A DNA stretch of 64,000 nt, taken from assembly GCF_022846255.1 (NCBI RefSeq), contig NZ_AP025682.1. One strand, written 5' to 3'. Every line of letters starts with the position of its first letter. The first letter of the stretch is position 1. Positions 18,651 through 64,000 of the stretch are shown here, one piece after another. Made by a program: the position numbers and the translations under genes. This stretch comes from Escherichia coli (lineage in GTDB: Bacteria; Pseudomonadota; Gammaproteobacteria; Enterobacterales; Enterobacteriaceae). The notes under the pieces were generated by a model. The model was given only the letters and a program-made list of their open reading frames with translations, had not been told where the DNA came from and did not search any database.

Positions 18651-18669
18651 TAGACAGGAGACAGTCACA

Positions 18670-20821: not shown

Positions 20822-20875
20822 GCGTTCATTAATTTGATTTATTCGCATCCATCAACGCTTTTAACTGCTCCGGCG
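20695..20875. repeat. Left copy of a diverged direct repeat (nanS 3' end plus downstream flank) bounding the defence island
   Basis: High similarity to 53494-53661 (shared tail ...ttcattaatttgatttatt[c/t]gcatccatcaacgcttttaactgctccggcg); the right copy lacks ~16 bp. Confidence 0.7.
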
Positions 20876-49103: not shown

Positions 49104-49314
49104 CCTGCCTTCCTTTGATACAATTCGTAACAGGTTACTATCATCATAAAAAAGCTCAACCCGATGAACTCGCTAAAAATGAGACAAATCATTTATATCT
49201 CGAAAAAACTTGTTACAATCATGAGCGCTACACCGAACTTAACCATATAAATTATGTGTGTTTTGTTTATTTTTTAAACAATTACAACTATCCATTATTT
49301 ACACAGGTATCAAA

Positions 49315-50967
49315 ATGTTAGCGCAGCTTTTTGAGCAGTTGTTTCAATCGATAGACTCTACACTGATCACCAATATTTTCATCTGGGCTGTTATATTCGT
49401 ATTTTTATCAGCGTGGTGGTGTGACAAAAAAAATATACATAGTAAGTTTAGAGAATATGCTCCAACCTTAATGGGGGCATTAGGTATTCTGGGTACTTTC
49501 ATTGGTATTATTATTGGGTTACTCAATTTTAATACTGAAAGTATTGATACCAGCATCCCCGTATTATTAGGCGGCCTAAAAACAGCATTCATTACAAGCA
49601 TTGTAGGTATGTTTTTTGCCATTTTATTTAATGGAATGGATGCTTTCTTTTTTGCCAATAAACGAAGTGCGTTAGCAGAAAATAACCCTGAATCTGTTAC
49701 ACCTGAACATATCTATCATGAATTAAAAGAGCAGAACCAGACTCTGACTAAATTAGTCTCGGGTATTAACGGTGATAGTGAAGGTTCTCTTATTGCTCAA
49801 ATAAAATTACTACGTACTGAGATTAGCGATTCCTCGCAGGCACAATTAGCTAATCACACTCATTTCAGTAATAAGCTTTGGGAACAACTTGAACAATTTG
49901 CAGATCTAATGGCAAAAGGTGCTACAGAACAAATTATTGATGCTTTACGACAAGTCATTATTGATTTTAATGAAAATTTAACTGAACAGTTTGGTGAAAA
50001 CTTTAAAGCACTTGATGCCTCTGTAAAAAAACTTGTTGAGTGGCAGGAAAATTATAAAACGCAAGTTGAGCTGATGTCAGAACAATATCAACAAAGTGTC
50101 GAGTCTCTGGTTGAAACAAAAACTGCGGTTGCCGGGATTTGGGAAGAATGTAAAGAAATTCCTCTGGCTATGTCTGAACTGCGTGAAGTGCTTCAGGTGA
50201 ACCAACATCAAATCAGCGAACTCTCCCGCCATTTAGAAACCTTTGTCGCCATCCGCGATAAAGCTACAACCGTATTACCTGAAATACAGAACAAAATGGC
50301 TGAAGTGGGTGAACTGCTGAAATCCGGAGCTGCAAATGTTAGTGCATCTCTTGAGCAAACCAGCCAGCAAATACTTCTTAATGCAGATTCAATGCGCGTG
50401 GCCCTGGATGAAGGTACCGAAGGATTCAGACAATCGGTTACCCAAACACAACAAGCATTTGCCTCGATGGCACATGATGTCAGCAATTCCTCCGAAACTC
50501 TAACCAGCACGTTAGGTGAAACAATTACTGAAATGAAACAAAGTGGTGAAGAATTCCTGAAGTCACTAGAGTCGCACTCGAAAGAATTGCATAGAAATAT
50601 GGAACAAAATACGACTAATGTAATTGATATGTTCAGTAAGACTGGTGAAAAGATTAACCATCAACTATCCAGTAATGCCGATAATATGTTTGATTCAATC
50701 CAGACATCATTTGATAAGGCAAGTGCAGGGCTGACTTCTCAAGTCAGAGAATCAATTGAAAAATTTGCTCTATCCATCAACGAGCAGTTACATGCTTTTG
50801 AGCAAGCAACTGAACGTGAGATGAACCGTGAAATGCAATCATTAGGTAATGCTCTGCTTTCAATCAGCAAAGGTTTTGTCGGTAACTATGAAAAACTTAT
50901 TAAAGATTACCAAATAATTATGGGGCAGTTACAAGCATTAATTTCTGCTAATAAACATCGAGGGTAA
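49315..50967 (+). CDS. zorA: Zorya ZorA (MotA/ExbB-like proton-channel subunit with long coiled-coil tail), ~550 aa from MLAQLFEQ
   Basis: N-terminal transmembrane helices (IFIWAVIFVFLSAWW, LMGALGILGTFIGIIIGL, AFITSIVGMFFAILF) followed by ~400 aa of heptad-like, low-complexity helical sequence; zorB and zorE follow. Confidence 0.75.
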   Translation: MLAQLFEQLFQSIDSTLITNIFIWAVIFVFLSAWWCDKKNIHSKFREYAPTLMGALGILGTFIGIIIGLLNFNTESIDTSIPVLLGGLKTAFITSIVGMFFAILFNGMDAFFFANKRSALAENNPESVTPEHIYHELKEQNQTLTKLVSGINGDSEGSLIAQIKLLRTEISDSSQAQLANHTHFSNKLWEQLEQFADLMAKGATEQIIDALRQVIIDFNENLTEQFGENFKALDASVKKLVEWQENYKTQVELMSEQYQQSVESLVETKTAVAGIWEECKEIPLAMSELREVLQVNQHQISELSRHLETFVAIRDKATTVLPEIQNKMAEVGELLKSGAANVSASLEQTSQQILLNADSMRVALDEGTEGFRQSVTQTQQAFASMAHDVSNSSETLTSTLGETITEMKQSGEEFLKSLESHSKELHRNMEQNTTNVIDMFSKTGEKINHQLSSNADNMFDSIQTSFDKASAGLTSQVRESIEKFALSINEQLHAFEQATEREMNREMQSLGNALLSISKGFVGNYEKLIKDYQIIMGQLQALISANKHRG

Positions 50968-50973
50968 TCGATC

Positions 50974-51681
50974 ATGGATAAGATTATAGGGAAACAATTA
51001 CCTAAAAAAGATCAAGATAATGAACACTGGGTATCCATGTCAGACCTAATGGCAGGGCTGATGATGGTTTTTATGTTCATATCTATTGCTTATATGCACT
51101 ACGTACGTATTGAAAAAGAAAAAATTAAAGAAGTTGCCGTAGCCTACGAGAATGCTCAGTTACAGCTTTATAATGCTCTGGATATTGAGTTTGCAAAGGA
51201 TTTGCAAGACTGGGATGCAGAGATCGATAAGCAGACTCTGGAGGTTCGATTTAAATCACCGGATGTTTTATTTGGCTTAGGAAGCATAGAGCTTAAACCA
51301 AAGTTTAAACTCATTCTTGACGACTTCTTTCCTCGCTACCTAAAAGTTCTTGATAATTATCAAGAACATATTACTGAAGTCCGCATTGAAGGTCACACAA
51401 GTACTGACTGGACTGGAACAACGAATCCTGATATTGCTTATTTTAATAATATGGCACTATCACAAGGTCGTACACGTGCAGTATTACAATACGTTTATGA
51501 TATAAAAAATATCGCGACACACCAACAATGGGTTAAAAGTAAATTTGCCGCAGTAGGTTATTCATCTGCACATCCCATTCTTGATAAAACCGGCAAGGAG
51601 GATCCTAATCGCTCTCGTCGTGTCACCTTCAAAGTTGTAACAAATGCCGAGTTGCAGATTAGAAAGATTATTCAGGAGTAA
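50974..51681 (+). CDS. zorB: Zorya ZorB (MotB-like with OmpA-type peptidoglycan-binding domain), 235 aa
   Basis: Single N-terminal TM helix (LMAGLMMVFMFISIAYM) and OmpA/MotB-like C-terminal domain (RIEGHTSTDW..., ...LSQGRTRAV..., RRVTF). Confidence 0.8.
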   Translation: MDKIIGKQLPKKDQDNEHWVSMSDLMAGLMMVFMFISIAYMHYVRIEKEKIKEVAVAYENAQLQLYNALDIEFAKDLQDWDAEIDKQTLEVRFKSPDVLFGLGSIELKPKFKLILDDFFPRYLKVLDNYQEHITEVRIEGHTSTDWTGTTNPDIAYFNNMALSQGRTRAVLQYVYDIKNIATHQQWVKSKFAAVGYSSAHPILDKTGKEDPNRSRRVTFKVVTNAELQIRKIIQE

Positions 51682-51684
51682 GAG

Positions 51685-52788
51685 ATGAAATTATCTATCG
51701 ACATTTCAGAACTTATTCAATTAGGGAAGAAAATGTTACCAGAAGGAGTCGATTTTTTTCTGGATGAATCCCCTATTGACTTTGATCCTATAGATATTGA
51801 GTTATCCACGGGTAAAGAAGTTAGTATCGAAGATCTTGACCCTGGTAGCGGGCTTATCTCTTATCATGGCCGCCAGGTTCTTTTATATATTAGGGACCAT
51901 TCAGGGCGTTATGATGCGGCTATCATCGATGGCGAAAAAGGAAAACGTTTTCATATTGCCTGGTGCAGAACTCTTGATGAAATGCGCCATAAAAATCGAT
52001 TTGAAAGGTATCATGCAACTAACCGCATAGATGGTTTATTCGAAATTGATGATGGTTCAGGTCGGAGCCAGGATGTTGATTTACGGGTATGTATGAATTG
52101 TCTGGAACGACTTAATTACAAAGGAAGTATTGATAAACAAAGGAAAAGAGAGATTTTTAAATCATTCTCATTAAATGAGTTTTTTTCAGATTATAGTACC
52201 TGTTTTCGTCATATGCCTAAGGGTATCTATGACAAAACAAATAGTGGGTATGTCGAAAACTGGAAAGATATATCAAAATCAATACGAGAAAAGGCCAAGT
52301 ATACTTGTAATGATTGTGGTGTGAATTTATCAACCGCCAAAAACTTGTGCCATGTCCATCATAAAAATGGCATCAAATATGATAATCACCATGAAAACCT
52401 TCTTGTTCTGTGTAAGGATTGCCATCGTAAACAGCCCCTCCATGAAGGTATATTCGTTACCCAAGCTGAGATGGCTATCATTCAACGTTTACGTTCCCAA
52501 CAAGGGTTATTAAAAGCCGAATCCTGGAATGAAATATATGACCTGACTGATCCATCAGTACATGGTGATATTAATATGATGCAACATAAAGGCTTTCAAC
52601 CTCCTGTTCCTGGGTTAGATCTTCAAAACTCAGAACATGAAATTATTGCAACCGTAGAAGCAGCATGGCCAGGCCTTAAAATTGCAGTTAACCTTACTCC
52701 CGCCGAAGTCGAAGGATGGAGAATATATACCGTGGGTGAGCTGGTTAAAGAAATACAAACAGGAGCCTTTACGTCAGCAACGTTGTAA
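51685..52788 (+). CDS. zorE: Zorya type II ZorE (HNH endonuclease), 367 aa
   Basis: HNH signature CNDCG...HVHHKNG...NLLVLCKDCH; third gene directly after zorA/zorB. Confidence 0.75.
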   Translation: MKLSIDISELIQLGKKMLPEGVDFFLDESPIDFDPIDIELSTGKEVSIEDLDPGSGLISYHGRQVLLYIRDHSGRYDAAIIDGEKGKRFHIAWCRTLDEMRHKNRFERYHATNRIDGLFEIDDGSGRSQDVDLRVCMNCLERLNYKGSIDKQRKREIFKSFSLNEFFSDYSTCFRHMPKGIYDKTNSGYVENWKDISKSIREKAKYTCNDCGVNLSTAKNLCHVHHKNGIKYDNHHENLLVLCKDCHRKQPLHEGIFVTQAEMAIIQRLRSQQGLLKAESWNEIYDLTDPSVHGDINMMQHKGFQPPVPGLDLQNSEHEIIATVEAAWPGLKIAVNLTPAEVEGWRIYTVGELVKEIQTGAFTSATL

Positions 52789-52799
52789 ATTCCGAAACT

Positions 52800-52835
52800 C
52801 CGTGAAAGTTAAGGCTTTCACGGAAGATAAATATA
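52800..52835 (+). terminator. Terminator-like hairpin after zorE
   Basis: ccgtgaaag-ttaagg-ctttcacgg 9-bp stem 12 nt after the zorE stop, followed by an AT-rich tract. Confidence 0.45.
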
Positions 52836-52998
52836 ATTTTCCTGATTTGTGACTCAAATTACAAAAGTCGTTTATGGCATAACTTGTCTGTTTTTTTTGG
52901 TGTAATAGGTATAAAGGCATATGCTATGGTTAGCCTTATATTTAAAACTTTCCTCATACGGGTGAAGGTTAAAGATTGGTAGATAGGTTACAGTCACA

Positions 52999-53607
52999 AT
53001 GAATAAAGCAATAACGGTGCTTGCTATAATGATGGCTTCATTTTCCGTAAATGCGTATGTATTACCGGAAACGCCTGTGCCATTTAAAAGTGGTACCGGA
53101 GCAATTGATAACAACACTGTCTACATTGGTTTAGGTAGCGCAGGTACGGCATGGTACAAGCTGGAGAAACAGACCAAAGATAAAAAATGGACAGCGTTAG
53201 CTGCATTTCCTGGTGGACCGAGAGATCAAGCAACTTCTGCATTTATTGATGGCAATCTGTATGTGTTTGACGGCATTGGCAAAAACAGTGAGGGCTTGAC
53301 TCAGGTATTTAATGACGTTCACAAATACAACCTCAAAACCAATAGCTGGGTTAAATTGATGTCGCACGCGCCGATGGGCATGGCGGGTCATGTGACATTT
53401 GTACACAACGGCAAGGCTTATGTTACTGGCGGTGTTAACCAGAATATCTTCAATGGCTATTTTGAAGATCTTAACGAAGCTGGAAAAGATTCAACATACC
53501 GAACGCCGGAGAACTGGACGACGACACCACGAAGCAGTCATTTCAGTCGGGGGATGATTGTAGACAAATTTGTTGACGCTATTTTGCGGTTTTGGCGTGA
53601 AGGGTGA
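52999..53607 (+). pseudogene. Chimeric nanM'-'nanS remnant (first ~165 codons of a nanM homologue fused to the last ~37 codons of a nanS homologue)
   Basis: 52999-53493 aligns at roughly nine in ten bases (by eye) with nanM 18670-19166; 53494-53607 aligns with the nanS 3' end 20695-20821 minus a short deletion; a GGTATA-type motif lies ~95 bp upstream. Confidence 0.75.
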
Positions 53608-53661
53608 GCATTCATTAATTTGATTTATTTGCATCCATCAACGCTTTTAACTGCTCCGGCG
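53494..53661. repeat. Right copy of the diverged direct repeat bounding the island
   Basis: Matches 20695-20875 (see left copy); similarity ends at ...ctgctccggcg in both copies. Confidence 0.7.
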
Positions 53662-54193
53662 AAAACGGTGGTTTGCGTCGGTGCAACATCGCATGGCAAT
53701 TAGGGCACACAGGAAGCAAATCATTAACTGGATCCAGCTGGTAATTCTCTTTAATGGCTGAAAGCGGCACCAGGTGATGCACATGGATAAAGCCTTCAGC
53801 GATATCACCATAGATCTTCACCAGATCAACGCCGCATACGTTGCACTGGCATCCATGATGTTCGACCGCTTTATCTCGGGCCTTTTTATCGCGTTCATAG
53901 CGGTTTACTGTCACCTTTATCGCCGCACTTTCAACGTATGTCTCCTGCGACGGCAACTCATCCGGGAACAGAACGTCGGCTATGGGAGCCGCAGCGGCTT
54001 TATCCAGATGAATATGAAATCCCTGCTCTATGAGTAGCTTGAGACATTTAGATTTTATTCCGCCGGTGAAATCCGCAGGGGTAAATTGCGTCCCCGTCAT
54101 CAATGTCGCTGCGATGCCAGCAATCGCCTTCGAGGGGTAACGTCGGCCATGAATACAACCGCGCAGGCTGGAACTGATGAGTTTCTCCCGCAT
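53615..54193 (-). CDS. HNH endonuclease-domain protein (192-aa ORF; probably the 3' part of a frameshifted longer gene together with the overlapping ORF 54048-54254)
   Basis: HNH motif HGCQCNVCG...HVHHLVPLS...LLPVCPNCH; an overlapping upstream ORF in another frame (MNKLPDHLPRRYIIEAIHLWDAGE...) suggests a frameshift; its last ~15 codons are also present in the left repeat copy after nanS. Confidence 0.6.
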   Translation of the reverse strand: MREKLISSSLRGCIHGRRYPSKAIAGIAATLMTGTQFTPADFTGGIKSKCLKLLIEQGFHIHLDKAAAAPIADVLFPDELPSQETYVESAAIKVTVNRYERDKKARDKAVEHHGCQCNVCGVDLVKIYGDIAEGFIHVHHLVPLSAIKENYQLDPVNDLLPVCPNCHAMLHRRKPPFSPEQLKALMDANKSN

Positions 54194-54333
54194 CCCATAA
54201 ATGGATAGCTTCGATGATATACCGCCGCGGAAGATGATCGGGGAGTTTATTCATGGAGAATGTCCTTATACGTTCTCAGAACAGGCAGCAAAAAAACAAA
54301 TGAGATCAAGGTAATATATCTTCACTTGCAGGC

Positions 54334-55263
54334 TTGAACAGCAGAAAATTTGCGAGCATGATCGCAATTATTTCACTGCCAGGGATATCAATGGCTTCCA
54401 GTAAATCGCTACAGCAGGCAATTGCCAATATAAAAATCTGGCACAAGGGTGAACAGCGCGCGCCGCATAAGCCATTGTTATTGCTATATATATTAGCGGG
54501 ATACCTGAATGGACATCCGCGCCTTTTCGATTATGGCTCGGAAATCTACGAACCTCTGCACAGTTTACTGGAACGTTTTGGGCCACAGCGTTCACAGTAC
54601 CGACCTGATATGCCGTTCTGGCGATTACAAGGCGACGGATTCTGGCAATTACACAATGCCGAGCTTTGCTCAACAGCAGGGAGCAGCCGACAACCACCAG
54701 TGAAGGAACTGACTGAATACCACGTTGCAGGCGGTTTCGATGAACAGCACTACGCCCTGGTAACTGGCAATAAAAAACTCATCAATACTCTGGCGCAACA
54801 GATACTCGAAGCGCACTTCACCGAGAGTATTCAGGAAGAAATTGCTGACGAGCTGGGTTTTGATCTCCAGCAAATCCGTAAACAGCGCGACCCGTTATTT
54901 CGCAAAAATGTATTACGCGCTTATAACTACCAGTGCGCGATATGTGGCTTTAATATGCGCCACGACGACACCACCGTCGCGCTGGAAGCGGCGCATATAA
55001 AATGGAAACAGCACGGCGGTCCTTGTGAAATTCCTAATGGCCTGGCGCTTTGCGCAATTCACCATAAAGCCTTTGATAAAGGATCGATTGGCCTGGATGA
55101 AAATATGCGGGTACTGGTATCAGATGCGGTAAACGGCGGAGGGATCGTTGAGAAACTATTCTGGGATTTTGACGGGAAAACTATTGCTTTGCCGCAGGTA
55201 CGTAAAAATTACCCTTATGAGGGATTTGTGGAGTGGCATCGAAAAGAGGTTTTTAGGGGGTGA
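54334..55263 (+). CDS. HNH nuclease-domain protein with an uncharacterised N-terminal domain (309-aa ORF; start uncertain)
   Basis: C-terminal HNH-like motif YQCAICGF...EAAHIKWKQHGG...ALCAIHHKAFDKG; N-terminal ~180 aa has no motif I can name. Confidence 0.55.
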   Translation: MNSRKFASMIAIISLPGISMASSKSLQQAIANIKIWHKGEQRAPHKPLLLLYILAGYLNGHPRLFDYGSEIYEPLHSLLERFGPQRSQYRPDMPFWRLQGDGFWQLHNAELCSTAGSSRQPPVKELTEYHVAGGFDEQHYALVTGNKKLINTLAQQILEAHFTESIQEEIADELGFDLQQIRKQRDPLFRKNVLRAYNYQCAICGFNMRHDDTTVALEAAHIKWKQHGGPCEIPNGLALCAIHHKAFDKGSIGLDENMRVLVSDAVNGGGIVEKLFWDFDGKTIALPQVRKNYPYEGFVEWHRKEVFRG

Positions 55264-55373
55264 GGTTGATAATACCGCGCCCCTATAATCTTGCCATCTC
55301 GTGCATTGAGATGTTAAAAGCTACAAATGTTCTCCCTATTTTTCAATGTAGACATTTATAGCAATATCAAAAT

Positions 55374-56372
55374 TTATTGTTCAGCTTTTTCAACAACAAA
55401 ACCATTTTGCCGTACAAACTCAATCAAGAGTTCAATATTAACAATGCCCCATTGATTAGAAATAGCAACAATTTCACCAGAGGGAAGTGTAATCAACGCA
55501 TCTTCATTAATATGATAGCGACTTTTTTGCTTCTCTGGTATCTGATCGATAAGCATAACCGTACGTTTTTTAAAGTCATCACTTAATCCATTTATTAAAT
55601 CATTATAACTTGCAGGATTAAATTGTCTTATCCAATCACGTAATAATTCAAGCGCTAATTTACGTTTATTAAGTTCTTTATCTTTATATATATACCACGT
55701 ATAGTCCTTCTCTTTTTTCTGACTGCTAATTAGCTGTTCATCACGTTTTTCACGAAATTTAACTTGATATTCTTCCAATTCAGGAACCGGTATGATTTGC
55801 TCTGCATTGATTAGAACATCATCATTAAATCTATAAGGCGTCAGACGAACACATCGAATGTCTACCCCCTTATCTCTTAACCAAATCGCAGTGGTAGTCA
55901 GTTCCTTGCTAAAATCCGATGATGCCAAAACAATTCTGATATCTTTTCCGAAATCAACAAGCTCAGTTTCATCCAATTCAACAAATTCAAGTATTTTTTC
56001 TTTCGCATCGGCATCGCAGTTTTGTTTTTTCAAATACGTCTGGAAATATTCACATGCTTTCGCAAAACTCATTGTGGAAATCATCGCCGCATATCGTAGT
56101 GCCTGTAACTCCATATGCGCCCCCGTTTCATCACGTTTTAATTCGATAACCACTAAATTTGCCTGTTTATCGATTGCCAATAAATCAATTCGCCGACGGC
56201 TATCTTCCCAGTCAGAAAACTCTTCGGAAATCACCAGACAATCAGGAGCAATAATATCTATATTTTTTTTGATTGCTTCCTGTAAATCATAACGTTCCTG
56301 TAATCCTTCCAGAGTAAATGTCGTTTTTTCTAAAGCATGTAGTTCTTTATTTGCGATATTGTACAGCGCCAC
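55374..56372 (-). CDS. PD-(D/E)XK-superfamily nuclease-like protein (332 aa), function unknown
   Basis: Candidate PD-(D/E)XK motif RIDLLAIDKQANLVVIELKRDE in the N-terminal third; co-directional with jetD 126 bp upstream. Confidence 0.45.
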   Translation of the reverse strand: MALYNIANKELHALEKTTFTLEGLQERYDLQEAIKKNIDIIAPDCLVISEEFSDWEDSRRRIDLLAIDKQANLVVIELKRDETGAHMELQALRYAAMISTMSFAKACEYFQTYLKKQNCDADAKEKILEFVELDETELVDFGKDIRIVLASSDFSKELTTTAIWLRDKGVDIRCVRLTPYRFNDDVLINAEQIIPVPELEEYQVKFREKRDEQLISSQKKEKDYTWYIYKDKELNKRKLALELLRDWIRQFNPASYNDLINGLSDDFKKRTVMLIDQIPEKQKSRYHINEDALITLPSGEIVAISNQWGIVNIELLIEFVRQNGFVVEKAEQ

Positions 56373-56498
56373 GTTTATCTTCCTTTTTTAACTGATTTTA
56401 CAGGGACTTTAACACAGTAAAAATTTTATTTCCTGAGCTGTAATCGATTAAGCTGATGCATTCAATGGGAATGATATCACCTAAAAAGCACATTATGA

Positions 56499-57554
56499 CT
56501 ATATAAATAAACCTAAAGAAGCCACACCTTCTTGGGGTAGACGCTGGTGGATCGCCAGAAGAGTCTTCATTTCTCGTAAAACAAACTTTGGCATCCAGCC
56601 ACACTGTAACTCGAAATCAAACCGTTCGTTGTTGGCGTTCCCTTCCGCTGTCATCAGGCCATTTAAGATCAGTTTATTATAAAGCCATTCATCTAAATGC
56701 AAGCTGATACCGTAATCATTAAGCAACTTACAACGCAACTGATGAGCGATTTTTAAGCCCGCAACATCCAGATCGCCAAAATAAAGTAGTTGTTCTACCT
56801 GTTCGACCTCAAGGAGTTGTGACACGCACTCCGCCTGACCGGAAACTTTGTTACCTGCGCCATAAATGACCAGTGACCAGCGAGTCTGTGCTCGATTAAG
56901 TTGGCATAGCCGATAATACACATCGGAGTTTTCAACAATGATAGCCGGAAGATCATGGCAACGAGATGACTCATACGGTAAAGGCGGCGCACGTCGAAAC
57001 GCGCCCATATCAGCCAAAGTCAGAGTGACATGCTTCCAGCCATCAGGTGGCAAGGAGTCCAGAGCTTTTTCGTCACCAAATATAAGCAGAGACCGCTCAC
57101 GATGTCCAAGCAAGCCCGGGAATAGCGACTTGTCGCCCCCGGTTTGGCGAAAAAGATATGTATTCAGCTGTTGTAAGCGTGCCTTGATTGGCTGGGTAAG
57201 TTGTCCTGTAATACGTCGGGCCAACCAGGGATGCCAGGCTATTTCTGATGTTGTCTTCGTAGGAACGATGGCACCTTCGTAAACAAAAGTACTTGGCAGG
57301 CTCATACCCCGCCAGTAACGCTGCCAACTCGCTTTGTGCTTAGGTTGAGCCCGCCAGTCCCTTTCAAGCAGTTGCGTAACAGCCTGACTCAGCAAATCAG
57401 GCACCTCCTGGCTCAAGGCCTCTTGATTGTGTGCGCGTAATACCTCATCCAGCACCGCATTAGCTTTCACTGTACGCACGGCCTTACCAGCGGCAAGACG
57501 ATGTTTATTGGCTGTCGACTCCAGTCGGGATAGCCAGATCATTACGCTACTCAT
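56499..57554 (-). CDS. jetD: Wadjet JetD-like protein (Toprim-type nuclease subunit), 351 aa
   Basis: Candidate Toprim acidic motif (LLYFGDLDVAGLKIA) and position immediately after the SMC-like gene. Confidence 0.65.
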   Translation of the reverse strand: MSSVMIWLSRLESTANKHRLAAGKAVRTVKANAVLDEVLRAHNQEALSQEVPDLLSQAVTQLLERDWRAQPKHKASWQRYWRGMSLPSTFVYEGAIVPTKTTSEIAWHPWLARRITGQLTQPIKARLQQLNTYLFRQTGGDKSLFPGLLGHRERSLLIFGDEKALDSLPPDGWKHVTLTLADMGAFRRAPPLPYESSRCHDLPAIIVENSDVYYRLCQLNRAQTRWSLVIYGAGNKVSGQAECVSQLLEVEQVEQLLYFGDLDVAGLKIAHQLRCKLLNDYGISLHLDEWLYNKLILNGLMTAEGNANNERFDFELQCGWMPKFVLREMKTLLAIHQRLPQEGVASLGLFI

Positions 57555-57566
57555 CTCATATCAACC

Positions 57567-60500
57567 TTAAATGACTGGATCGAACTGTGGCTTAGCAGCC
57601 AGAGAAGCCGCCCACAGGGCATGGCGTTCTTTATCAACGGTTACCAAATCGCGCCGCCTCAGTTTTTGAACTTTATTCAGGAAGAGATGGTTATCAAACA
57701 TTGATTGGGCGTTTTCATCCGAAATACCAGTCAGGTAGATGAGCTGGATTTTATAGGCTTTGGCCATTTGGGTTTGAATGCGCATTAGATCATTGGCATT
57801 CGATTTACCCAGCGGGTTATCGGCTAACAAGAATCCTGCACTTGAAATACCCGTATCGTACTCTCGTACTTTACCAACCGTCACAAACAGTAAAAAGGCA
57901 GATGTAAGGCGCTGTCCACCCGAACCTTCAAGTCGGGTGACAGGAGTCCATTGTGGACGGCTGGCATTCGTCTTCAGCAAACGCACCTCCAGTTCCCCTT
58001 CGCCAAATACCGACTGAACCAAATCAGCTGTCAAGGCGTCCCGATTGGGCGCTCGGGGTATCTGTCCCCTGGCTATCCACTGCTGCAAGCGGCTGCTGGC
58101 AAAACCCCTGATATCAGCGGCAACATCATTCAACCGGTCGGTCATTTTAATAATGGGCCGACCAGGCAGTACGGGGCAATCCTCAGGAATTTTGACCGAC
58201 ATCGCGCGCCTGAGAAGCTTAATCGCCCCTTCCAGATGAGCAGTCAGATGGGTGACAGTCAGATCAATCGAACGTTGGAATTGCTCGAGGCTGTCCTGCA
58301 CAGCTTCGAATACCTGCGAGATCCCTGTACCGACCCTCTCCAAATCGCCCAGCACTTCATGATAAGTTGCGATTGAGTCCAACGGCCGTAAGTATTCCTG
58401 ACTGGCTCGGGCGTCTGGATCCTTGGCCAACTCTTCTTCGATGCGTTTGCGGAATTTTCCCCAGACCGTAGAGACGCGCATATTTTGCTGTTTTAGCGTT
58501 TCATTTAAACCGGCATACACTTGGCATTGTGCAGCCAGATCGTCAGCATATTCTGTGATGCTCAGGATCCTACCAGGTAGACCTGCGGCAGAGCTCGGCG
58601 TAATGGGCTGGATCATCGCTTGAGCTGTTTTGGCGTTCTGTAGCCGCTCTTTCACATTTTCAATCTTTCTCAACAGCAGTGTCTTTTGTTCCAGTAGGAA
58701 CTTGATCTGGTGTTCAATCGCATAAAGGTTATTGACGATTTCAGCCAGAGACGTTTGGATTGCCTCTATCTCAATGGGCTTCTCTTCCCAGACAAAATCC
58801 TCGTCAAGTGCTTTACTAGCCTCCTCACAGCTTTGGGAAAATTTTTGCAGAGTTACCTGAGAGCTAATTAGATTTTGCGTGAATTGCTTTTGCTGTTCTT
58901 TGAGGCGTACGATGCTGTTATTAATTACCGTTAGCTCATTGATGGCCGCAGCTTTTACCTCATCCGGATATGTATTGTAGGTGGGTTGAGCGGTCAAACG
59001 ATCAGAGGCGTAACGTTGTGCCTGTTCAGCATCTTTCAGTTGTTGCTTGAGAACGGTCACTTGATCACCGTTGGCTGCTTCGAGCAATTTTTTGTGCGCC
59101 TGAGCAGCCATCTCATGGGCATATTCAGGGCTTCGTCCTTCCATACCTTCAGTCGCCGTAATCTCTGAATAGAACGGTTCGTTACACAGATTACTCCAGC
59201 TACCTATCTGGATAATTAAAAGGGTTTTCTCGGAGCGTTTGTTCTTCTCGAGCTCGCTCAGCCGTTCCAGCCTCTCTCTCTGGGTGTAAAGAGTGTTCTT
59301 GCTTCGCTGAATCTGTGCAGCTAACTGCTCCAGTTTCATTATCGCCGTTTCACGCTTCGCCCATTCTTTTTCTACAAAAAGACTCACTTTATCATGTGCT
59401 TTTTCTGCCTGAATTTTCTGCTGTTGGGCGTTGTTTAAACGCACCTGGACATCTCTCTTCTCGTCACGCAGTGTTTGCTCATCATGCTCAGCTTGCTTAA
59501 GTGCTGCATCAGCATTTTCCAGTATTAATAGAGCCAGCTCCCGTTGGTCAAGCAGTCCCGCCCAATGCTTACCATACTGTTCGTAATGCCGACTCCAGTC
59601 ATTCCTGAAAGATTCCAGTACTTTAAGGGCGCTCTCCGCAGCCTTCACACTGACTTCCTGCGACGCTACGGTATTCTCCAGGTCTTGCAGCCGGGTTTCG
59701 TAAGCGGCCTGGCTATATCCGTGCTTATCGGGGTTTGAGAGGACAACCTGTACTAATTCAGACGTTTCTCGGCGGAGATCTTGTGCTTCATCCAGCAAGT
59801 AAATAGCAATAGGTGCCTTCTTCCAGGGTAGGATCTCACTAATTTTATGGACCTGTTCAAACGTTACATTGTCGAGTGCGACCAGGCTCAGGTAGCGGCC
59901 AGGGTTCTGATCGATCACCGCTGCAATCTTTTGTGCATCATCGTTGTGAGCAGAGGCCAAATAGTGTGGAAATGTCCATAGCTTATCCCGTGCAATGCCC
60001 GCAGCATAAAACGCTTCAAGTGCCTCATTGACCTGCTTAGCAACCAGTTCATGTCCCGTCACCCTCAACTCGTCCAGTTCGTGCCGGGCTTGCAGTAAAC
60101 GCTCTTTCATTCCATTCAGCGTTTGAGCGTTCGCATTCAATACTTTGTCGAGCTGCAATCCACACAGCTCGCTGTGCCAACTCGTGTCTTCAATATCCAG
60201 ATCATGTCGCGTTGACGATGGCAGTTTTTGATAGGTTTTTGCTAAAAGTAAGGCACTATCCACAGCTGACTGGTGTTTTTGTTTAGCCAGAATGAGTTTT
60301 TGCTGGGCCTCACTTTTCTCAATTGATGCCTCCCGCACAACATTCAGCTGTGCTTCCAGCGCCTGCTCTTTCTGATGAAGAATTGTATTAGCCAGTTCTT
60401 CACTCTGCTTTGCATCGCGTAAGGTTAATTCCAGTCGGTATTGGGCTGCTACTGGTGTTTCATCCTTCTGGATCAACCCAGCTTCACATAATTCATTCCG

Positions 60501-62003
60501 TTGCGATTCGCCCTGAAATTTGTCTCTTTTATATCCGTCACGCTCCGTTTCCAGACCACCCAACGTCTTTTGTAGTTTATCGTATGACTGTCTGAGGACA
60601 TGGCTTTCCCTGTCCATCTGCCCTAATTCTTCCTCAAGCGTAGCCTCCTGCTGGCGATGTCTGTCGATTGCCCACTCTAATGTGCCCAAGGCTTCGCCAG
60701 CAGTACGCTCGAAAATCACCTGTAGCGGCCTTTCCGTTTCACTTTGGAATACCTTCAGATCTTCATCTGCCTGGCGGTACTCATTCAGGGCCTTAGCATA
60801 GGCTTTGTAGTCTATAGCAGCGTGAGTAATCTCAATCTGGTGCTGATTGGTATCGGCTTCGTCTTGAAGCGCATCGACTATCGCTTTTTGTTTGTCGAAC
60901 TGATGCTGCACGAGATCATATTCAAGCAGTGCTCTGCGCTTACCTAACTGCTCACGCAGAGACATCGCCTGGCCAATATGTGTTTGCAAACTATCCATGT
61001 TATCTTCAAGCTGCGTCTGTTCAACCTGAGCATCCCCGACAAAGGCTGCGAGATCGCGCATTGCTTCTCGGAAGCCATCATCCAGCAGTTGCTGCTGTGC
61101 CTGGATGCTTTCCAGCTGTTTAGCCGGATCAAGAAACGCCAGCCAGTTAGCCAGCACATCCTTCAGGAAGGACTCGTTACGACGAATCCCCTCTAACTCT
61201 CCCTGACGCTCAACTTCATGCGCTACCAGTTCCCGCAGCCGCTCAGCCGCATCTTTAGACATGGTGCAGGCGAAGAACGCGCCAAGGAAATCATGTTCAG
61301 TTTTGTATTCGATAAAACGGGTCAGGCCACCTTCTTCGGAGTTGAAGGTCACCATTGTTTTGATAAGATCAACGTTAATTTGTTGTTCCAGTAAAAATGC
61401 GCGCCACTCGTTCTGTCTGGTGGTTTTACGCCAATGCATACCGCCTTCACTACCGGCCTTGAGATTAAGCCAGCTATCAAAACTGCGCAGGCTATTGGCA
61501 TAGGGGCGCAGCTCAGAATTGCGTTCCGCGCGGGAATAAGAAGGGACTTCATCAAACGGCGCGCCCATCAGGGAGTCGGGCGCATCACAAATAAACAGTG
61601 TCCGGTCAACATCATCTCCATTACGCTGATGAGCATGTCCTAGTAATAACGTTTGTCCTGATTCATTGACCATCTCAACCAAAACAACAGAGAGTTCTTT
61701 ATAGAAGTAATTGCGGTAGTGGTATTCACTCTGGCGATGATTTGCCAGATATTGGGTGAAGTCACTAACGGACGGCTCAAAAATCGATAACAGCAGCGCG
61801 ATGTAGGTCGACTTACCACCCCCATTCACAAGCTGCTGATAAGTACTGGTCACCACCTTCGCATTCCTGACGGGCGAGCGCAGACCTTCAACAACAGGGC
61901 TACTGACCGCTTGAGACAGGCCAATATAGTCCAGTGTGAGGTCCTTGTAGAAAGCTTCTTCATGGCCTGCACCATCCATATAAACCCGTTTAATCAGCCA
62001 CAT
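57567..62003 (-). CDS. jetC: Wadjet JetC-like SMC-family ABC ATPase (MksF/MukB-like), 1478 aa
   Basis: N-terminal Walker A (VNGGGKSTY), ~1000 aa of coiled-coil-like sequence, C-terminal ABC signature (LEGSGGQR) and Walker B-like (FLLADNP). Confidence 0.7.
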   Translation of the reverse strand: MWLIKRVYMDGAGHEEAFYKDLTLDYIGLSQAVSSPVVEGLRSPVRNAKVVTSTYQQLVNGGGKSTYIALLLSIFEPSVSDFTQYLANHRQSEYHYRNYFYKELSVVLVEMVNESGQTLLLGHAHQRNGDDVDRTLFICDAPDSLMGAPFDEVPSYSRAERNSELRPYANSLRSFDSWLNLKAGSEGGMHWRKTTRQNEWRAFLLEQQINVDLIKTMVTFNSEEGGLTRFIEYKTEHDFLGAFFACTMSKDAAERLRELVAHEVERQGELEGIRRNESFLKDVLANWLAFLDPAKQLESIQAQQQLLDDGFREAMRDLAAFVGDAQVEQTQLEDNMDSLQTHIGQAMSLREQLGKRRALLEYDLVQHQFDKQKAIVDALQDEADTNQHQIEITHAAIDYKAYAKALNEYRQADEDLKVFQSETERPLQVIFERTAGEALGTLEWAIDRHRQQEATLEEELGQMDRESHVLRQSYDKLQKTLGGLETERDGYKRDKFQGESQRNELCEAGLIQKDETPVAAQYRLELTLRDAKQSEELANTILHQKEQALEAQLNVVREASIEKSEAQQKLILAKQKHQSAVDSALLLAKTYQKLPSSTRHDLDIEDTSWHSELCGLQLDKVLNANAQTLNGMKERLLQARHELDELRVTGHELVAKQVNEALEAFYAAGIARDKLWTFPHYLASAHNDDAQKIAAVIDQNPGRYLSLVALDNVTFEQVHKISEILPWKKAPIAIYLLDEAQDLRRETSELVQVVLSNPDKHGYSQAAYETRLQDLENTVASQEVSVKAAESALKVLESFRNDWSRHYEQYGKHWAGLLDQRELALLILENADAALKQAEHDEQTLRDEKRDVQVRLNNAQQQKIQAEKAHDKVSLFVEKEWAKRETAIMKLEQLAAQIQRSKNTLYTQRERLERLSELEKNKRSEKTLLIIQIGSWSNLCNEPFYSEITATEGMEGRSPEYAHEMAAQAHKKLLEAANGDQVTVLKQQLKDAEQAQRYASDRLTAQPTYNTYPDEVKAAAINELTVINNSIVRLKEQQKQFTQNLISSQVTLQKFSQSCEEASKALDEDFVWEEKPIEIEAIQTSLAEIVNNLYAIEHQIKFLLEQKTLLLRKIENVKERLQNAKTAQAMIQPITPSSAAGLPGRILSITEYADDLAAQCQVYAGLNETLKQQNMRVSTVWGKFRKRIEEELAKDPDARASQEYLRPLDSIATYHEVLGDLERVGTGISQVFEAVQDSLEQFQRSIDLTVTHLTAHLEGAIKLLRRAMSVKIPEDCPVLPGRPIIKMTDRLNDVAADIRGFASSRLQQWIARGQIPRAPNRDALTADLVQSVFGEGELEVRLLKTNASRPQWTPVTRLEGSGGQRLTSAFLLFVTVGKVREYDTGISSAGFLLADNPLGKSNANDLMRIQTQMAKAYKIQLIYLTGISDENAQSMFDNHLFLNKVQKLRRRDLVTVDKERHALWAASLAAKPQFDPVI

Positions 62004-62005
62004 AC

Positions 62006-62902
62006 TTAAATCTCCGTCAAGCGTTGCGTTTCTGTGGTTCCAGTTGTAACTGGACGTTCATTGAGCGAAGGAAACTCCAGGGTATCTGCTAATGCTGCAA
62101 GATCGCTTTCAGCTAAATCGGACGACCGTTCTTCTACGGCTGGACTGATGCTCATGACAAAGCGCACCGTCTCTTCGATGCCAGTATGGCGCAGATAATG
62201 TTTGAGTTTTTGGGTCGGATACCAGTCGGACTCTCCCGACAAACTGCTGTCTTCGGCCAGAAAGCCTTCCTCCTGCAGCAGTTGTATCCAGCGCGTTGCC
62301 ATTTCTGTTTGCGAGCGAATACTTGAGACACGCCCTACCTTTTCGTCGTGAATACGGGGAATACGTTCTTCCTGCACAAACCTGGCCGCCATAAGTAGGC
62401 CATCTACGGTATCGTCACCCTCGGCCTTGCGCTGGGCAATCACCTGGTCGGCAACATTATTGAGCCTGGCTACCACCGAGGCTGCATTAATGGCGTTACT
62501 CTGACCGAACTCGACACGAACGGTGTCTGGAGTTGGAAACAAATCAGCCAGCAACGCAATCAGAGTTAAGCCTGCAAACAGGCGCTGTTCTTTCCGTTCC
62601 TTACCCTGTTGCTCAGCCATTGTTTCAGGTAGCAAGCGTTTGTTCAGCCAACCCAAAGATGGGGAAAACGGACCTCGGCCATCTGCAGCCAGTAATACCC
62701 CGTAGGTCTCATGAATCCCGAGATACCGCAATTTCATACCTGTCGCGACGCCACGGATAATCTCTGTGAACAGGGCATCACCTTGCAGATCAAGAGCACG
62801 TTGAATCAGCTCATCCCCCATTTTATATCCCAGTGAATTCATAATTGCCTGCGTGGCAATCTCGGCGTAGCGTTTAGTTTGTTGATGCGCGTTGTCGTAC
62901 AT
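62006..62902 (-). CDS. jetB: Wadjet JetB-like (MksE-like) subunit, 298 aa
   Basis: Acidic ~300-aa protein between the jetA-like and SMC-like genes; assignment by synteny and size. Confidence 0.55.
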   Translation of the reverse strand: MYDNAHQQTKRYAEIATQAIMNSLGYKMGDELIQRALDLQGDALFTEIIRGVATGMKLRYLGIHETYGVLLAADGRGPFSPSLGWLNKRLLPETMAEQQGKERKEQRLFAGLTLIALLADLFPTPDTVRVEFGQSNAINAASVVARLNNVADQVIAQRKAEGDDTVDGLLMAARFVQEERIPRIHDEKVGRVSSIRSQTEMATRWIQLLQEEGFLAEDSSLSGESDWYPTQKLKHYLRHTGIEETVRFVMSISPAVEERSSDLAESDLAALADTLEFPSLNERPVTTGTTETQRLTEI

Positions 62903-62904
62903 AA

Positions 62905-64000
62905 CTACTCCTCAAAGGGGTATAAGGGAGCAACCGTTAACAGTTTGATATTGTTAGCCCGCCAGAGCGTTGTTTCGATAGCGCCGTCTATCTCCACTTC
63001 TATTGCGGGATCGCTGTTAGCTGCCAGGCTGCCAATATGGAGTAAACAAACCTGTTGCTCTTGTTCGGATAATTCTTCGCCCTCATAGGCGTCAAAAACA
63101 TCTCTAAAGCTCACATGCCCCCAATTCTTCAATCGGTCACTAACCCAATCGCTGCATTTTTTAATGACAGATTCAGGGATACCTCGCAGGTTGGTTTCAA
63201 TAGCTACAGGCTGATCGGTGAGGTCCTGTATCTCATGTGGAAGCGCCTGTTCAAATCTATCGAGATAAAGGTTCAGCAGCGCCTCAAGGTCAAACAGAAT
63301 GTGCCGATCATCATCCTGTCTTCGGGGAGCCAACAGGCGTGCGGTGAGATCATCGATTTCCTTTTCGACAGTGTCGGGGGAATGAGACAGCAAGGGCTTG
63401 AGTGCACCTTTTTCCAGTGTTTCCCGAAAGAGGGTATTATCTCTGGGAATAATGAGTTTCAGACGAGCTCGCTCAAAATCTTTATTCACATCCAGTAAGC
63501 AGTCTTGATAGCGCTGCGTAAAAGCGCAGACCTCAGCAAAAATCTCCTGTGCTCTACGTAGCTTATTTAATTTGTCGGGATTTAATTTCGAAATTCCTTC
63601 AACCAGCATTTCGGTAATGGCCGACATTGAGTTCTGGATATGTTCCAAAACCTCTCGGGTTTTATCAAAGGAATCATTGAGTACGGGACGGATATCGTGT
63701 GCATAAGATGCACTCAAATCACCAGACTGGGCGGCACGCACTTTCATCCGCATTCCAATCAGATATTGCTCCAGTTGCCGCTGTGTTGATTGGATTTGGT
63801 GTACTGCCTTGTCGATCTCTCCGCGACGGATCGTTTTAAGCGTGCGCCAGGCCAGAATCGCAGCGCGTTCTATCGGCGTTTCATCCAAGCGCAGGGTATA
63901 GAACAACATTCCTTCATCAGTCAGCGACCAGAGAATATCATCTGAGCCGGATAGCTGGTCATAGCGTACCAGACGGACTATCTGCTCTTCGGAATGCGTT
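62905..64000 (-). CDS. jetA: Wadjet JetA-like (MksB-like) subunit, partial; N-terminus lies beyond the window end
   Basis: Reading frame stays open from 62905 to the window edge (the track ORF starts at an internal Met at 63909); 2-bp gap to jetB. Confidence 0.55.
   Translation of the reverse strand, partial: THSEEQIVRLVRYDQLSGSDDILWSLTDEGMLFYTLRLDETPIERAAILAWRTLKTIRRGEIDKAVHQIQSTQRQLEQYLIGMRMKVRAAQSGDLSASYAHDIRPVLNDSFDKTREVLEHIQNSMSAITEMLVEGISKLNPDKLNKLRRAQEIFAEVCAFTQRYQDCLLDVNKDFERARLKLIIPRDNTLFRETLEKGALKPLLSHSPDTVEKEIDDLTARLLAPRRQDDDRHILFDLEALLNLYLDRFEQALPHEIQDLTDQPVAIETNLRGIPESVIKKCSDWVSDRLKNWGHVSFRDVFDAYEGEELSEQEQQVCLLHIGSLAANSDPAIEVEIDGAIETTLWRANNIKLLTVAPLYPFEE

What the first reader, a model, noticed from the sequence alone, without database searches (positions are those of the whole stretch)
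53615..56372. Cluster of three uncharacterised nuclease genes between the island and Wadjet (two HNH, one PD-(D/E)XK-like)
Two divergently transcribed HNH proteins (53615-54193 minus, 54334-55263 plus) and a PD-(D/E)XK-like protein (55374-56372 minus) sit between recognisable defence systems. Domain proteins of this kind in defence islands are often type IV (modification-dependent) restriction enzymes or single-gene defences; the N-terminal domains could be modified-DNA readers, but that is speculation.
Basis: inference. Interest (0 to 1): 0.5.

Follow-up and report, generated by a model that had tools for sequence, protein, structure and literature searches.

The report
Three stand-alone defence nucleases, one broken
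The three genes are real but mostly ordinary: one is a near-identical copy of the known E. coli enzyme EcoWI, which cuts sulfur-modified foreign DNA, one is a frameshifted relic of an untested HNH nuclease family, and one is an already catalogued but untested candidate anti-phage nuclease.

Summary
The window is the E. coli fim–nan/leuX defence hotspot. All three ORFs exist and the nuclease domain calls are right, but "uncharacterised" holds for only two of them.

- **Gene 2** (true start 54391, to 55263, +, 290 aa) scores 437.9 bits on NCBIfam NF045808 (cut-off 180). It is 97.9% identical to the E. coli W protein at the same locus. I infer that protein is EcoWI, a characterised SBD-HNH enzyme that cleaves GpsAAC/GpsTTC phosphorothioated DNA and works on its own.
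- **Gene 1** is a ScoMcrA-head (PF26345)–HNH gene of 216 codons (53615-54254, −). An 11-bp deletion after 54152 breaks it, and that deletion is seen in none of 1,239 complete E. coli genomes carrying the gene. The reported 192-aa ORF is its out-of-frame tail.
- **Gene 3** (55374-56372, −) matches PADLOC candidate PDC-S11 full length (E 9e-114). It has a NucS-like PD-(D/E)XK domain with an intact catalytic motif at the N-terminus and a variable, unmatched C-terminal domain. The family is untested.

The genes vary independently across E. coli, so they are not one system. The head-HNH/SBD-HNH divergent pair does recur in Citrobacter and Klebsiella, and both N-terminal domains are fused in ScoMcrA, which is a modest lead. 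Interest is low to moderate.

The parts
53615..54254 (-). Gene 1: ScoMcrA_N (head)-HNH nuclease gene, inactivated by an 11-bp deletion between 54152 and 54153. The native start at 54254 gives 34 native residues plus 34 out-of-frame residues.
54255..54390 (.). Divergent intergenic region between genes 1 and 2. It contains a conserved palindrome, TTGCGAGCATGATCGCAA, at 54350-54367, 24 nt upstream of the gene 2 start.
   Evidence: The palindrome is conserved in E. coli W, K. aerogenes and C. amalonaticus while the rest of the spacer diverges.
54391..55263 (+). Gene 2: SBD-HNH phosphorothioate-dependent restriction endonuclease, an allele of EcoWI (290 aa, 33.15 kDa). The sulfur-pocket residues H26-K27 and M74-P75 and the HNH residues H202, N216 and H224/H225 are all present.
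   Evidence: NF045808, 437.9 bits against cut-off 180. (ScoMcrA SBD 5zmo, E 4.5e-7). (HNH_2). (97.9% aa identity to E. coli W WP_000168572.1). (residue positions). PMC7461809 and PMC6224610.
55374..56372 (-). Gene 3: PDC-S11 family protein (332 aa). The N-terminal ~215 residues form a NucS-like PD-(D/E)XK nuclease module (E50/E51, D63, E77-x-K79, Q90, Y94). A long helix spans 199-218. The C-terminal alpha/beta domain (225-332) varies between subfamilies.
52979..53614 (+). Context: truncated duplicate of the nanM 5' part plus a nanS-end remnant. It marks the recombination joint that abuts the 3' end of gene 1.
   Evidence: NanM model covers only residues 1-167. (RefSeq: incomplete, missing C-terminus). 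(94% identical to 18650-19166).

Best explanation
These are three independent, single-polypeptide nuclease genes that have accumulated at the nan/leuX defence hotspot of E. coli. They are not one system.

Gene 2 is a functional-looking allele of EcoWI. By homology, it acts as a homodimer. The N-terminal sulfur-binding domain docks the Rp sulfur of phosphorothioated GpsAAC/GpsTTC sites into a hydrophobic pocket (H26, K27, M74, P75). The C-terminal HNH domain then cuts a few bases downstream with Mg2+. This destroys incoming plasmids or phage DNA that were modified in dnd+ donors.

Gene 1 belongs to a widespread family with a ScoMcrA-head domain fused to a McrA-type zinc-finger HNH. This is the architecture of a type IV enzyme, and its ligand is unknown. 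In this strain it is a pseudogene.

Gene 3 is a PDC-S11 protein with an active-looking NucS/RecB-type PD-(D/E)XK nuclease. I infer that it is a stand-alone defence nuclease whose variable C-terminal domain sets what it recognises.

Shown here: identities, domain content, catalytic residues, the frameshift and the population distribution. Taken from the literature on near-identical or related proteins: EcoWI biochemistry. Inferred: activity of this allele, any function of the head domain, and a defence role for gene 3.
For: Gene 2: it exceeds the NCBIfam PT-DNA_restrict cut-off more than two-fold over the full length. It has the SBD and HNH_2 domains. It differs at 6 of 290 residues from the E. 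coli W protein at the same locus, none of them pocket or catalytic residues. EcoWI alone restricts dnd+ plasmids and cleaves GpsAAC N7/N6 (PMC7461809).

Gene 1: the 11-bp deletion and its repair in silico. The head-domain match to ScoMcrA by sequence and by fold. 2,588 homologues with PF26345+HNH.

Gene 3: a full-length PDC-S11 match, the invariant catalytic motif, and the NucS fold. Its homologues sit in defence contexts: Tn7-CAST cargo next to type I RM in V. cholerae, and next to BREX-1 in other E. coli.

Independence: full-length gene 2 is in 1,706 of 5,426 complete E. coli genomes, gene 1 in 1,239, gene 3 in 496, genes 1+2 together in 325, and the tested 52800-56500 block (nanM' remnant plus all three genes) in 61. 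In O26, gene 1 is kept and gene 2 is cut to 50 codons. In strain W, gene 2 is kept and gene 1 is cut to 35 codons.
Against: No experiment was done on this allele. The assignment of EcoWI to WP_000168572.1 rests on the enzyme naming convention, on matching length and mass (33.3 kDa against the 33.4 kDa reported) and on the E. coli W locus, because the papers give no accession. The recurrent divergent pairing of head-HNH with SBD-HNH in several genera argues that genes 1 and 2 may not be fully independent. PDC-S11 has never been tested for defence (bioRxiv 10.1101/2024.01.29.577857). The 11-bp deletion could be an assembly error.
Confidence: 0.8

Rival explanations
1. Genes 1 and 2 are a functional two-gene module, a 'split ScoMcrA'. 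Under this reading the head-HNH protein cooperates with the SBD-HNH enzyme, for instance as a heteromer or as a second reader for the same invaders, and its loss here weakens or changes gene 2's function.
For: Both N-terminal domains occur fused in one chain in ScoMcrA (head 31-93, SBD 95-232). The same divergent head-HNH/SBD-HNH pair sits in unrelated chromosomal contexts in K. aerogenes, in two Citrobacter species and in C. amalonaticus between housekeeping genes. Both genes also occur on one E. coli ICE about 4 kb apart. A palindrome in the shared spacer is conserved.
Against: EcoWI alone is active in vitro and restricts in vivo (PMC7461809). E. coli W keeps gene 2 with only 35 codons of gene 1. 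Head-HNH occurs without SBD-HNH in K. pneumoniae, Atlantibacter, Pseudescherichia and Shewanella. SBD-HNH occurs alone in Salmonella and E. hormaechei, or with Mrr_N-HNH instead. The ScoMcrA head domain is flexibly attached and was not reported to contact DNA or to contribute to the dimer. The loci showing the pair are close relatives, so they may reflect one inherited cassette.
Confidence: 0.15
2. The frameshifted gene 1 still makes an active, N-terminally truncated HNH nuclease from an internal start (the 192-aa ORF, or the 161-aa Met56 form). This product would act as a deregulated nickase or toxin.
For: The HNH half is intact, with all invariant Cys/His/Asn residues. A 161-aa truncated form is annotated in other E. 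coli assemblies (P0004). Deleting 87 N-terminal residues turned SprMcrA into a non-specific nickase (PMC7461809).
Against: I saw no convincing ribosome-binding site before the ATG at 54193 when reading the sequence. No promoter-like site was found inside the gene. A deregulated nuclease would be selected against.
Confidence: 0.08
3. All three genes form one tripartite defence system, or gene 3 is an accessory of the neighbouring Wadjet system.
For: The genes are tightly clustered. Gene 3 lies 126 bp downstream of jetD on the same strand.
Against: The genes sit on alternating strands. The block containing all three is in only 61 of 5,426 genomes, while each gene is far more common alone. In other E. 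coli, gene 3 sits next to gene 2 with BREX-1, not Wadjet, beyond it. In V. cholerae and Citrobacter it has quite different neighbours.
Confidence: 0.03
4. The HNH genes are housekeeping, homing or transposon-associated nucleases with no defence role.
For: HNH domains are common in homing endonucleases. There are weak PHROG HNH hits.
Against: The PHROG matches cover only the HNH motif. There is no intein, intron or transposase context. The specific family matches are to restriction enzymes. The accessory, patchy distribution in a defence hotspot also argues against it.
Confidence: 0.02

Closest known systems
EcoWI (E. coli W SBD-HNH phosphorothioate-dependent restriction endonuclease; NCBIfam NF045808)
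   Same: Gene 2 has the same length (290 aa), the same chromosomal locus after nanC-nanM-nanS', the same SBD+HNH_2 architecture and 97.9% amino-acid identity. Pocket and catalytic residues are conserved.
   Different: There are six substitutions (I34V, T108N, G156R, H208Q, K255R, G278V, written window to W). The flanking genes differ: PDC-S11 and Wadjet here, McrBC-like and type I RM in strain W. The activity of this allele is untested.
ScoMcrA (Streptomyces coelicolor head-SBD-SRA-HNH type IV enzyme, PDB 5ZMM)
   Same: Gene 1's N-terminal domain matches the ScoMcrA head, and gene 2's N-terminal domain matches its SBD. Both end in HNH nucleases.
   Different: ScoMcrA is one 561-aa chain and also has an SRA domain. 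Here the head and the SBD are on two separate, divergently transcribed HNH proteins, with no SRA. The two HNH domains are of different Pfam types (PF01844 and PF13391).
EcoKMcrA and other reader-HNH type IV enzymes (NEco-HNH, Mrr_N-HNH, wH-HNH)
   Same: Gene 1's C-terminal ~110 residues (VNRYERD…HVHH…PVCPNCHAMLH) align with the EcoKMcrA HNH (E 1.1e-3). The same module is fused to many different N-terminal domains across bacteria. The architecture is a small reader domain plus HNH.
PADLOC PDC-S11 (untested phage defence candidate)
   Same: Gene 3 matches model PDLC04909 over its full length, and four other PDC-S11 models over the N-terminal ~225-232 residues.
   Different: Nothing differs structurally. 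The family has no demonstrated function.
NucS/EndoMS mismatch endonuclease
   Same: Gene 3 shares the fold and catalytic motif of the NucS C-terminal nuclease domain.
   Different: It scores 29.4 bits against a cut-off of 216. The sequence match covers only the NucS C-terminal nuclease region (profile positions 121-200 of 250). Gene 3 adds a different C-terminal domain, and its distribution is accessory and defence-island-like. It is not a NucS orthologue.

Membership tests
SBD-HNH phosphorothioate-dependent restriction endonuclease (NF045808 / EcoWI) | Whole-protein score above the curated NCBIfam cut-off | tested here: met
   437.9 bits against a cut-off of 180, profile positions 2-284 of 284
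SBD-HNH phosphorothioate-dependent restriction endonuclease (NF045808 / EcoWI) | Sulfur-binding domain with the pocket residues equivalent to ScoMcrA H116, R117 (K in most homologues) and P165 | tested here: met
   The alignment to 5zmo (E 4.5e-7) places PHKP (H26, K27) on LHRP and MPFW (M74, P75) on YPFW (positions). Y164 is variable among homologues, and Y164M improved binding (PMC6224610).
SBD-HNH phosphorothioate-dependent restriction endonuclease (NF045808 / EcoWI) | C-terminal HNH nuclease with catalytic His/Asn/His | tested here: met
   Pfam HNH_2, 1.3e-9. H202, N216 and H224/H225 are present.
SBD-HNH phosphorothioate-dependent restriction endonuclease (NF045808 / EcoWI) | Cleavage dependent on phosphorothioate modification; restriction of dnd+ DNA | not testable with these tools
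   Known for EcoWI (PMC7461809). Inferred here from 97.9% identity to the E. coli W protein.
ScoMcrA_N (PF26345)-HNH family | N-terminal ScoMcrA head domain | tested here: inconclusive
ScoMcrA_N (PF26345)-HNH family | C-terminal zinc-finger HNH with CxxC…CxxC and HH…N…H | tested here: met
   Pfam HNH, 9.8e-5. The invariant residues C141, C144, H163, H164, N189, C190 and H195, and the nearly invariant C187, are all present in the window sequence.
ScoMcrA_N (PF26345)-HNH family | Uninterrupted reading frame | tested here: not met
   An 11-bp deletion after 54152. It is absent from 1,239 complete E. coli genomes.
PADLOC PDC-S11 | Full-length match to a PDC-S11 profile | tested here: met
   PDLC04909, E 9.2e-114, residues 1-323 on profile positions 1-338 of 347
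PADLOC PDC-S11 | Anti-phage activity | not testable with these tools
   The PDC systems are described by their authors as untested candidates.
PD-(D/E)XK nuclease superfamily (NucS/RecB-like branch) | Catalytic D…(D/E)xK motif plus QxxxY, on the restriction-endonuclease-like fold | tested here: met
NucS/EndoMS (NF003270) | Score above the curated cut-off, and a match extending over the NucS N-terminal domain | tested here: not met
   29.4 bits against a cut-off of 216. Only profile positions 121-200 of 250 are matched.
Wadjet (JetABCD) accessory | Conserved linkage to jet genes | tested here: not met
   In other E. coli, gene 3 is followed by BREX-1. In V. cholerae and Citrobacter there is no Wadjet nearby.

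The most novel reading that the evidence does not exclude
The ScoMcrA 'head' domain, whose function has been unknown since 2018, is a DNA-modification or DNA-damage reader in its own right. On this reading, head-HNH proteins are a new specificity class of type IV restriction enzymes that travels as a divergent two-gene cassette with SBD-HNH enzymes in Enterobacteriaceae. The cassette would cover two marks carried by the same dnd+ invaders, or the two proteins would act as a heteromeric partnership. My evidence does not exclude this. The recurrent pairing and the domain fusion in ScoMcrA mildly favour some functional link.
Probability: 0.2. Interest if true: 0.5.

Novelty: new member of a known kind. 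Interest (0 to 1): 0.25.

Why it matters
Practically, little changes: RefSeq and PADLOC already label all three genes. The useful outcomes are four.

1. The strain very probably restricts phosphorothioated (dnd+) DNA through an EcoWI allele. That matters for gene transfer into it.
2. The second HNH gene should be annotated as a pseudogene.
3. The locus shows how a defence hotspot decays. Either member of the HNH pair is lost in different E. coli lineages, and the commonest apparently intact gene 1 allele carries a zinc-ligand substitution.
4. The recurring head-HNH/SBD-HNH cassette gives a concrete handle for testing what the orphan ScoMcrA head domain does. The PDC-S11 family (3,505 representative relatives at E ≤ 0.001) remains an easy single-gene candidate to test.

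Tried and rejected
- **Pfam-A on the window-encoded proteins** returned only the HNH and NucS_C hits. The newer families PF26345 and PF26340 appeared only as precomputed hits on database homologues, so the head and SBD assignments rest on those, on PDB matches and on NCBIfam.
- **EcoWI accession or sequence.** I searched for it in PMC7461809, its supplement, PMC9521924 and PMC10602919. None is given. The link to E. coli W WP_000168572.1 is therefore inferred from the enzyme name, the length and mass, and the locus.
- **The single genome-contig scan.** It was driven mainly by the HNH pattern PVCPNCHA and returned mostly HNH relatives with other N-terminal domains. Only 8 loci had a head domain, so I could not compute a proper co-occurrence statistic for head-HNH with SBD-HNH. 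The evidence is a handful of loci from related genera.
- **PHROGs** gave only generic HNH hits.
- **Phosphorothioation genes.** I looked for dnd/ssp genes in the window, which would conflict with gene 2. The neighbouring 26-kb island has helicase, methyltransferase, SNF2 and YjiT-like proteins but no dnd/ssp match. The rest of the genome is not available.
- **JetA** is not interrupted. It simply runs off the window end.
Full report
**Setting.** The window is E. coli chromosome around the fim–nan region, next to the leuX island. The fim genes and nanC-nanM-nanS lie upstream. A ~26-kb block of very large helicase, methyltransferase and SNF2-like genes follows. After it come a type II Zorya system at 49258-52788 (ZorE 691 bits against cut-off 600; ZorA2 and ZorB2), a truncated second copy of nanM, the three genes in question, and a type III Wadjet system (JetD, JetC, JetA). 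RefSeq annotation of a 99%-identical relative (NZ_CP042896) names the three genes 'HNH endonuclease', 'phosphorothioated DNA-binding restriction endonuclease' and 'PDDEXK family nuclease'.

**The observation.** Two coordinate corrections are needed. First, comparison with the relative shows that the window lacks 11 bp (TATTCAATCTC on the + strand) after base 54152. The real gene 1 is a 216-codon gene running from 54254 to 53615. In the window its first 34 codons are now out of frame with the rest. From the native start only a 68-residue product can be made, and re-inserting the 11 bp in silico restores the complete protein. A 120-nt probe across the deletion found the gene in 1,239 of 5,426 complete E. 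coli genomes. The listed best matches, at 91.6% identity, all carry the extra 11 bp, and no record reached 99% identity. The lesion is therefore private to this strain, or it is an assembly error. Second, gene 2 most plausibly starts at ATG 54391 and encodes 290 aa, as in RefSeq.

**Gene 2 is a known enzyme.** It scores 437.9 bits on NCBIfam NF045808 'phosphorothioated DNA-binding restriction endonuclease' (cut-off 180), end to end. Its N-terminal 140 residues align with the crystallised sulfur-binding domain (SBD) of ScoMcrA (5zmo, E 4.5e-7). The residues that form the sulfur pocket are conserved: H26-K27 for H116-R117, and M74-P75 for Y164-P165. Liu et al. report that Lys is the commoner residue at the R117 position, that Tyr164 varies with sequence context, and that Y164M binds better (PMC6224610). 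The C-terminal half is an HNH_2 domain with H202, N216 and H224/H225.

E. coli W carries a 290-aa, 33.3-kDa orthologue at the same place, directly after nanC-nanM-nanS'. The window protein differs from it at six positions, which is 97.9% identity, and none is a pocket or catalytic residue. EcoWI is described as a 33.4-kDa E. coli SBD-HNH enzyme (PMC7461809). It forms a dimer, needs Mg2+, cuts GpsAAC/GpsTTC at N7/N6, and when expressed alone in E. coli abolishes transformation by dnd+ plasmids. The papers give no accession, so equating EcoWI with the strain W protein is an inference from the enzyme name, size and locus. Full-length copies of gene 2 occur in 1,706 of 5,426 complete E. coli genomes and fragments in 4,860. 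Orthologues at 73-82% identity are common in Citrobacter, Klebsiella, Enterobacter and Salmonella.

The C-terminal ~110 residues are a McrA-type zinc-finger HNH (EcoKMcrA E 1.1e-3), with invariant C141, C144, H163, H164, N189, C190 and H195. The genome scan showed the same module fused to many other N-terminal domains in proteins of roughly 200-460 aa across phyla. That is the pattern expected of modification-dependent 'reader + HNH' enzymes. The family is large, with 2,588 hits, but PADLOC has no dedicated model for it; there are only partial matches to type IV models.

**Gene 3 is a catalogued candidate.** It matches PADLOC PDC-S11 over its full length (E 9.2e-114) and four further PDC-S11 profiles over the first ~225-232 residues. 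The PDC families are 145 candidates predicted by 'guilt by embedding' inside BREX, DISARM and type I RM loci, and their authors state they are untested. A sensitive search found 3,505 representative relatives at E ≤ 0.001, most sharing only residues 1-215. In an alignment of 33 full-length relatives, E26, D63, D68, E77, K79, R80, Q90, R93, Y94 and W308 are invariant and E50/E51 nearly so. This is the E…D…ExK…QxxxY signature of the NucS/RecB/Cas4 branch of PD-(D/E)XK nucleases.

**Are they one system?** No. The genes sit on alternating strands and vary independently. Gene 2 is full length in 1,706 genomes, gene 1 is present in 1,239, gene 3 in 496, genes 1 and 2 occur together in 325, and the tested 52800-56500 block, which holds all three genes plus the nanM' remnant, is in 61. 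In O26 and many other strains gene 1 is whole and gene 2 is cut to 50 codons. In strain W and an O155 strain gene 2 is whole and gene 1 is reduced to its last 35 codons. The commonest apparently intact gene 1 allele (WP_001037966) has Tyr in place of the nearly invariant zinc ligand C187. Gene 3 stays beside gene 2 in other E. coli, but what lies beyond it changes from Wadjet to BREX-1, so it is not a Wadjet accessory. The picture is a recombination hotspot where stand-alone nucleases persist or decay one by one.

**The one non-trivial lead.** The divergent head-HNH/SBD-HNH pair recurs in unrelated chromosomal contexts:
- K. aerogenes, where a third enzyme, Mrr_N-HNH, joins them;
- Citrobacter sp. 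Cu233 and FP75;
- C. amalonaticus, where the pair sits alone between housekeeping regulators;
- an E. coli integrative element, where diverged copies of both lie ~4 kb apart.

In Enterobacter, Raoultella and C. portucalensis the SBD-HNH gene is instead followed by Mrr_N-HNH. Head and SBD are fused in ScoMcrA. A palindrome (TTGCGAGCATGATCGCAA) just upstream of gene 2 is conserved across genera while the rest of the spacer is not.

Against a functional dependence, EcoWI works alone, and each gene occurs without the other in several genera. The loci with the pair are also phylogenetically close. I therefore rate a true two-gene module at about 15%, and a reader function for the head domain at about 20%.

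**Verdict.** Gene 2 is already known, gene 1 is a pseudogene of an uncharacterised but widespread type IV-like family, and gene 3 is a member of a catalogued, untested candidate family. Overall this is a new member of known kinds, of low to moderate interest.

Noticed in passing
window 20829-20873: Right after the intact nanS there is a second remnant of the last ~15 codons of gene 1 (reverse complement encodes PEQLKALMDANKSN*). In addition, 52979-53495 duplicates the nanM 5' part (94% identical to 18650-19166). The ~32-kb block between them (big island plus Zorya II) is thus bracketed by repeated nan/gene 1 fragments, as if it had been recombined into the hotspot.
   Followed up: partly
window 54350-54367: The palindrome TTGCGAGCATGATCGCAA lies 24 nt upstream of the gene 2 start. 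It is conserved in E. coli W, K. aerogenes and C. amalonaticus although the surrounding spacer diverges. It could be an operator or a 5'-UTR hairpin. The E. coli version contains a GATC site.
   Followed up: partly
L010/L011 6523-7173 (E. coli O26 RM10386, WCHEC020031); protein WP_001037966.1: The commonest 'intact' E. coli allele of gene 1 has Tyr instead of the nearly invariant zinc-ligand Cys187 (PVYPNCH instead of PVCPNCH). It may be inactive even where the reading frame is whole.
   Followed up: partly
window 22959-49103: A ~26-kb island on the minus strand. It encodes a UvrD/PcrA-like helicase (704 aa), two ~2,100-aa DEAH helicases with weak DpdJ similarity, a 1,644-aa protein with weak PglX-methyltransferase similarity, a DrmD-like SNF2 helicase (349.7 bits, below the 610 cut-off) and a YjiT/STY4851-family protein (970 bits). 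It fits no named defence system cleanly.
   Followed up: partly
window 49258-52788: A complete type II Zorya system: zorA2, zorB2 and zorE, all strong matches. ZorE is itself an HNH protein, so the region holds three HNH genes within 4 kb.
   Followed up: yes
window 56499-64000: A type III Wadjet system on the minus strand: jetD 56499-57554, jetC 57567-62003, a 298-aa gene in the jetB position with no PADLOC hit at 1e-5, and jetA from 62905 running off the window end.
   Followed up: partly
L092/L093 6328-7996 (Citrobacter): A 76%-identical gene 3 homologue lies immediately downstream of a frameshifted ScoMcrA_N-HNH gene (139 + 73 aa pieces), with no SBD-HNH nearby. It sits beside an SNF2/HATPase/AAA_5 cluster. 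This is a second, differently arranged association of these families, and another decayed head-HNH.
   Followed up: no
L006 4260-6636 (K. aerogenes); L022, L033, L035: SBD-HNH genes are often accompanied by a second small HNH enzyme that carries gene 1's type of HNH module but an Mrr_N reader domain. K. aerogenes has all three (Mrr_N-HNH, SBD-HNH, head-HNH) side by side next to a type I RM system.
   Followed up: partly
L002-L005 (E. coli integrative element, e.g. CP010133.1): Diverged paralogues of gene 1 (58% identity) and gene 2 (51%) are carried on the same integrase/TraI/TraG element about 4 kb apart, separated by relaxase and ArdC-like anti-restriction genes. The gene 1 paralogue cluster is recorded on 565 contigs.
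   Followed up: no
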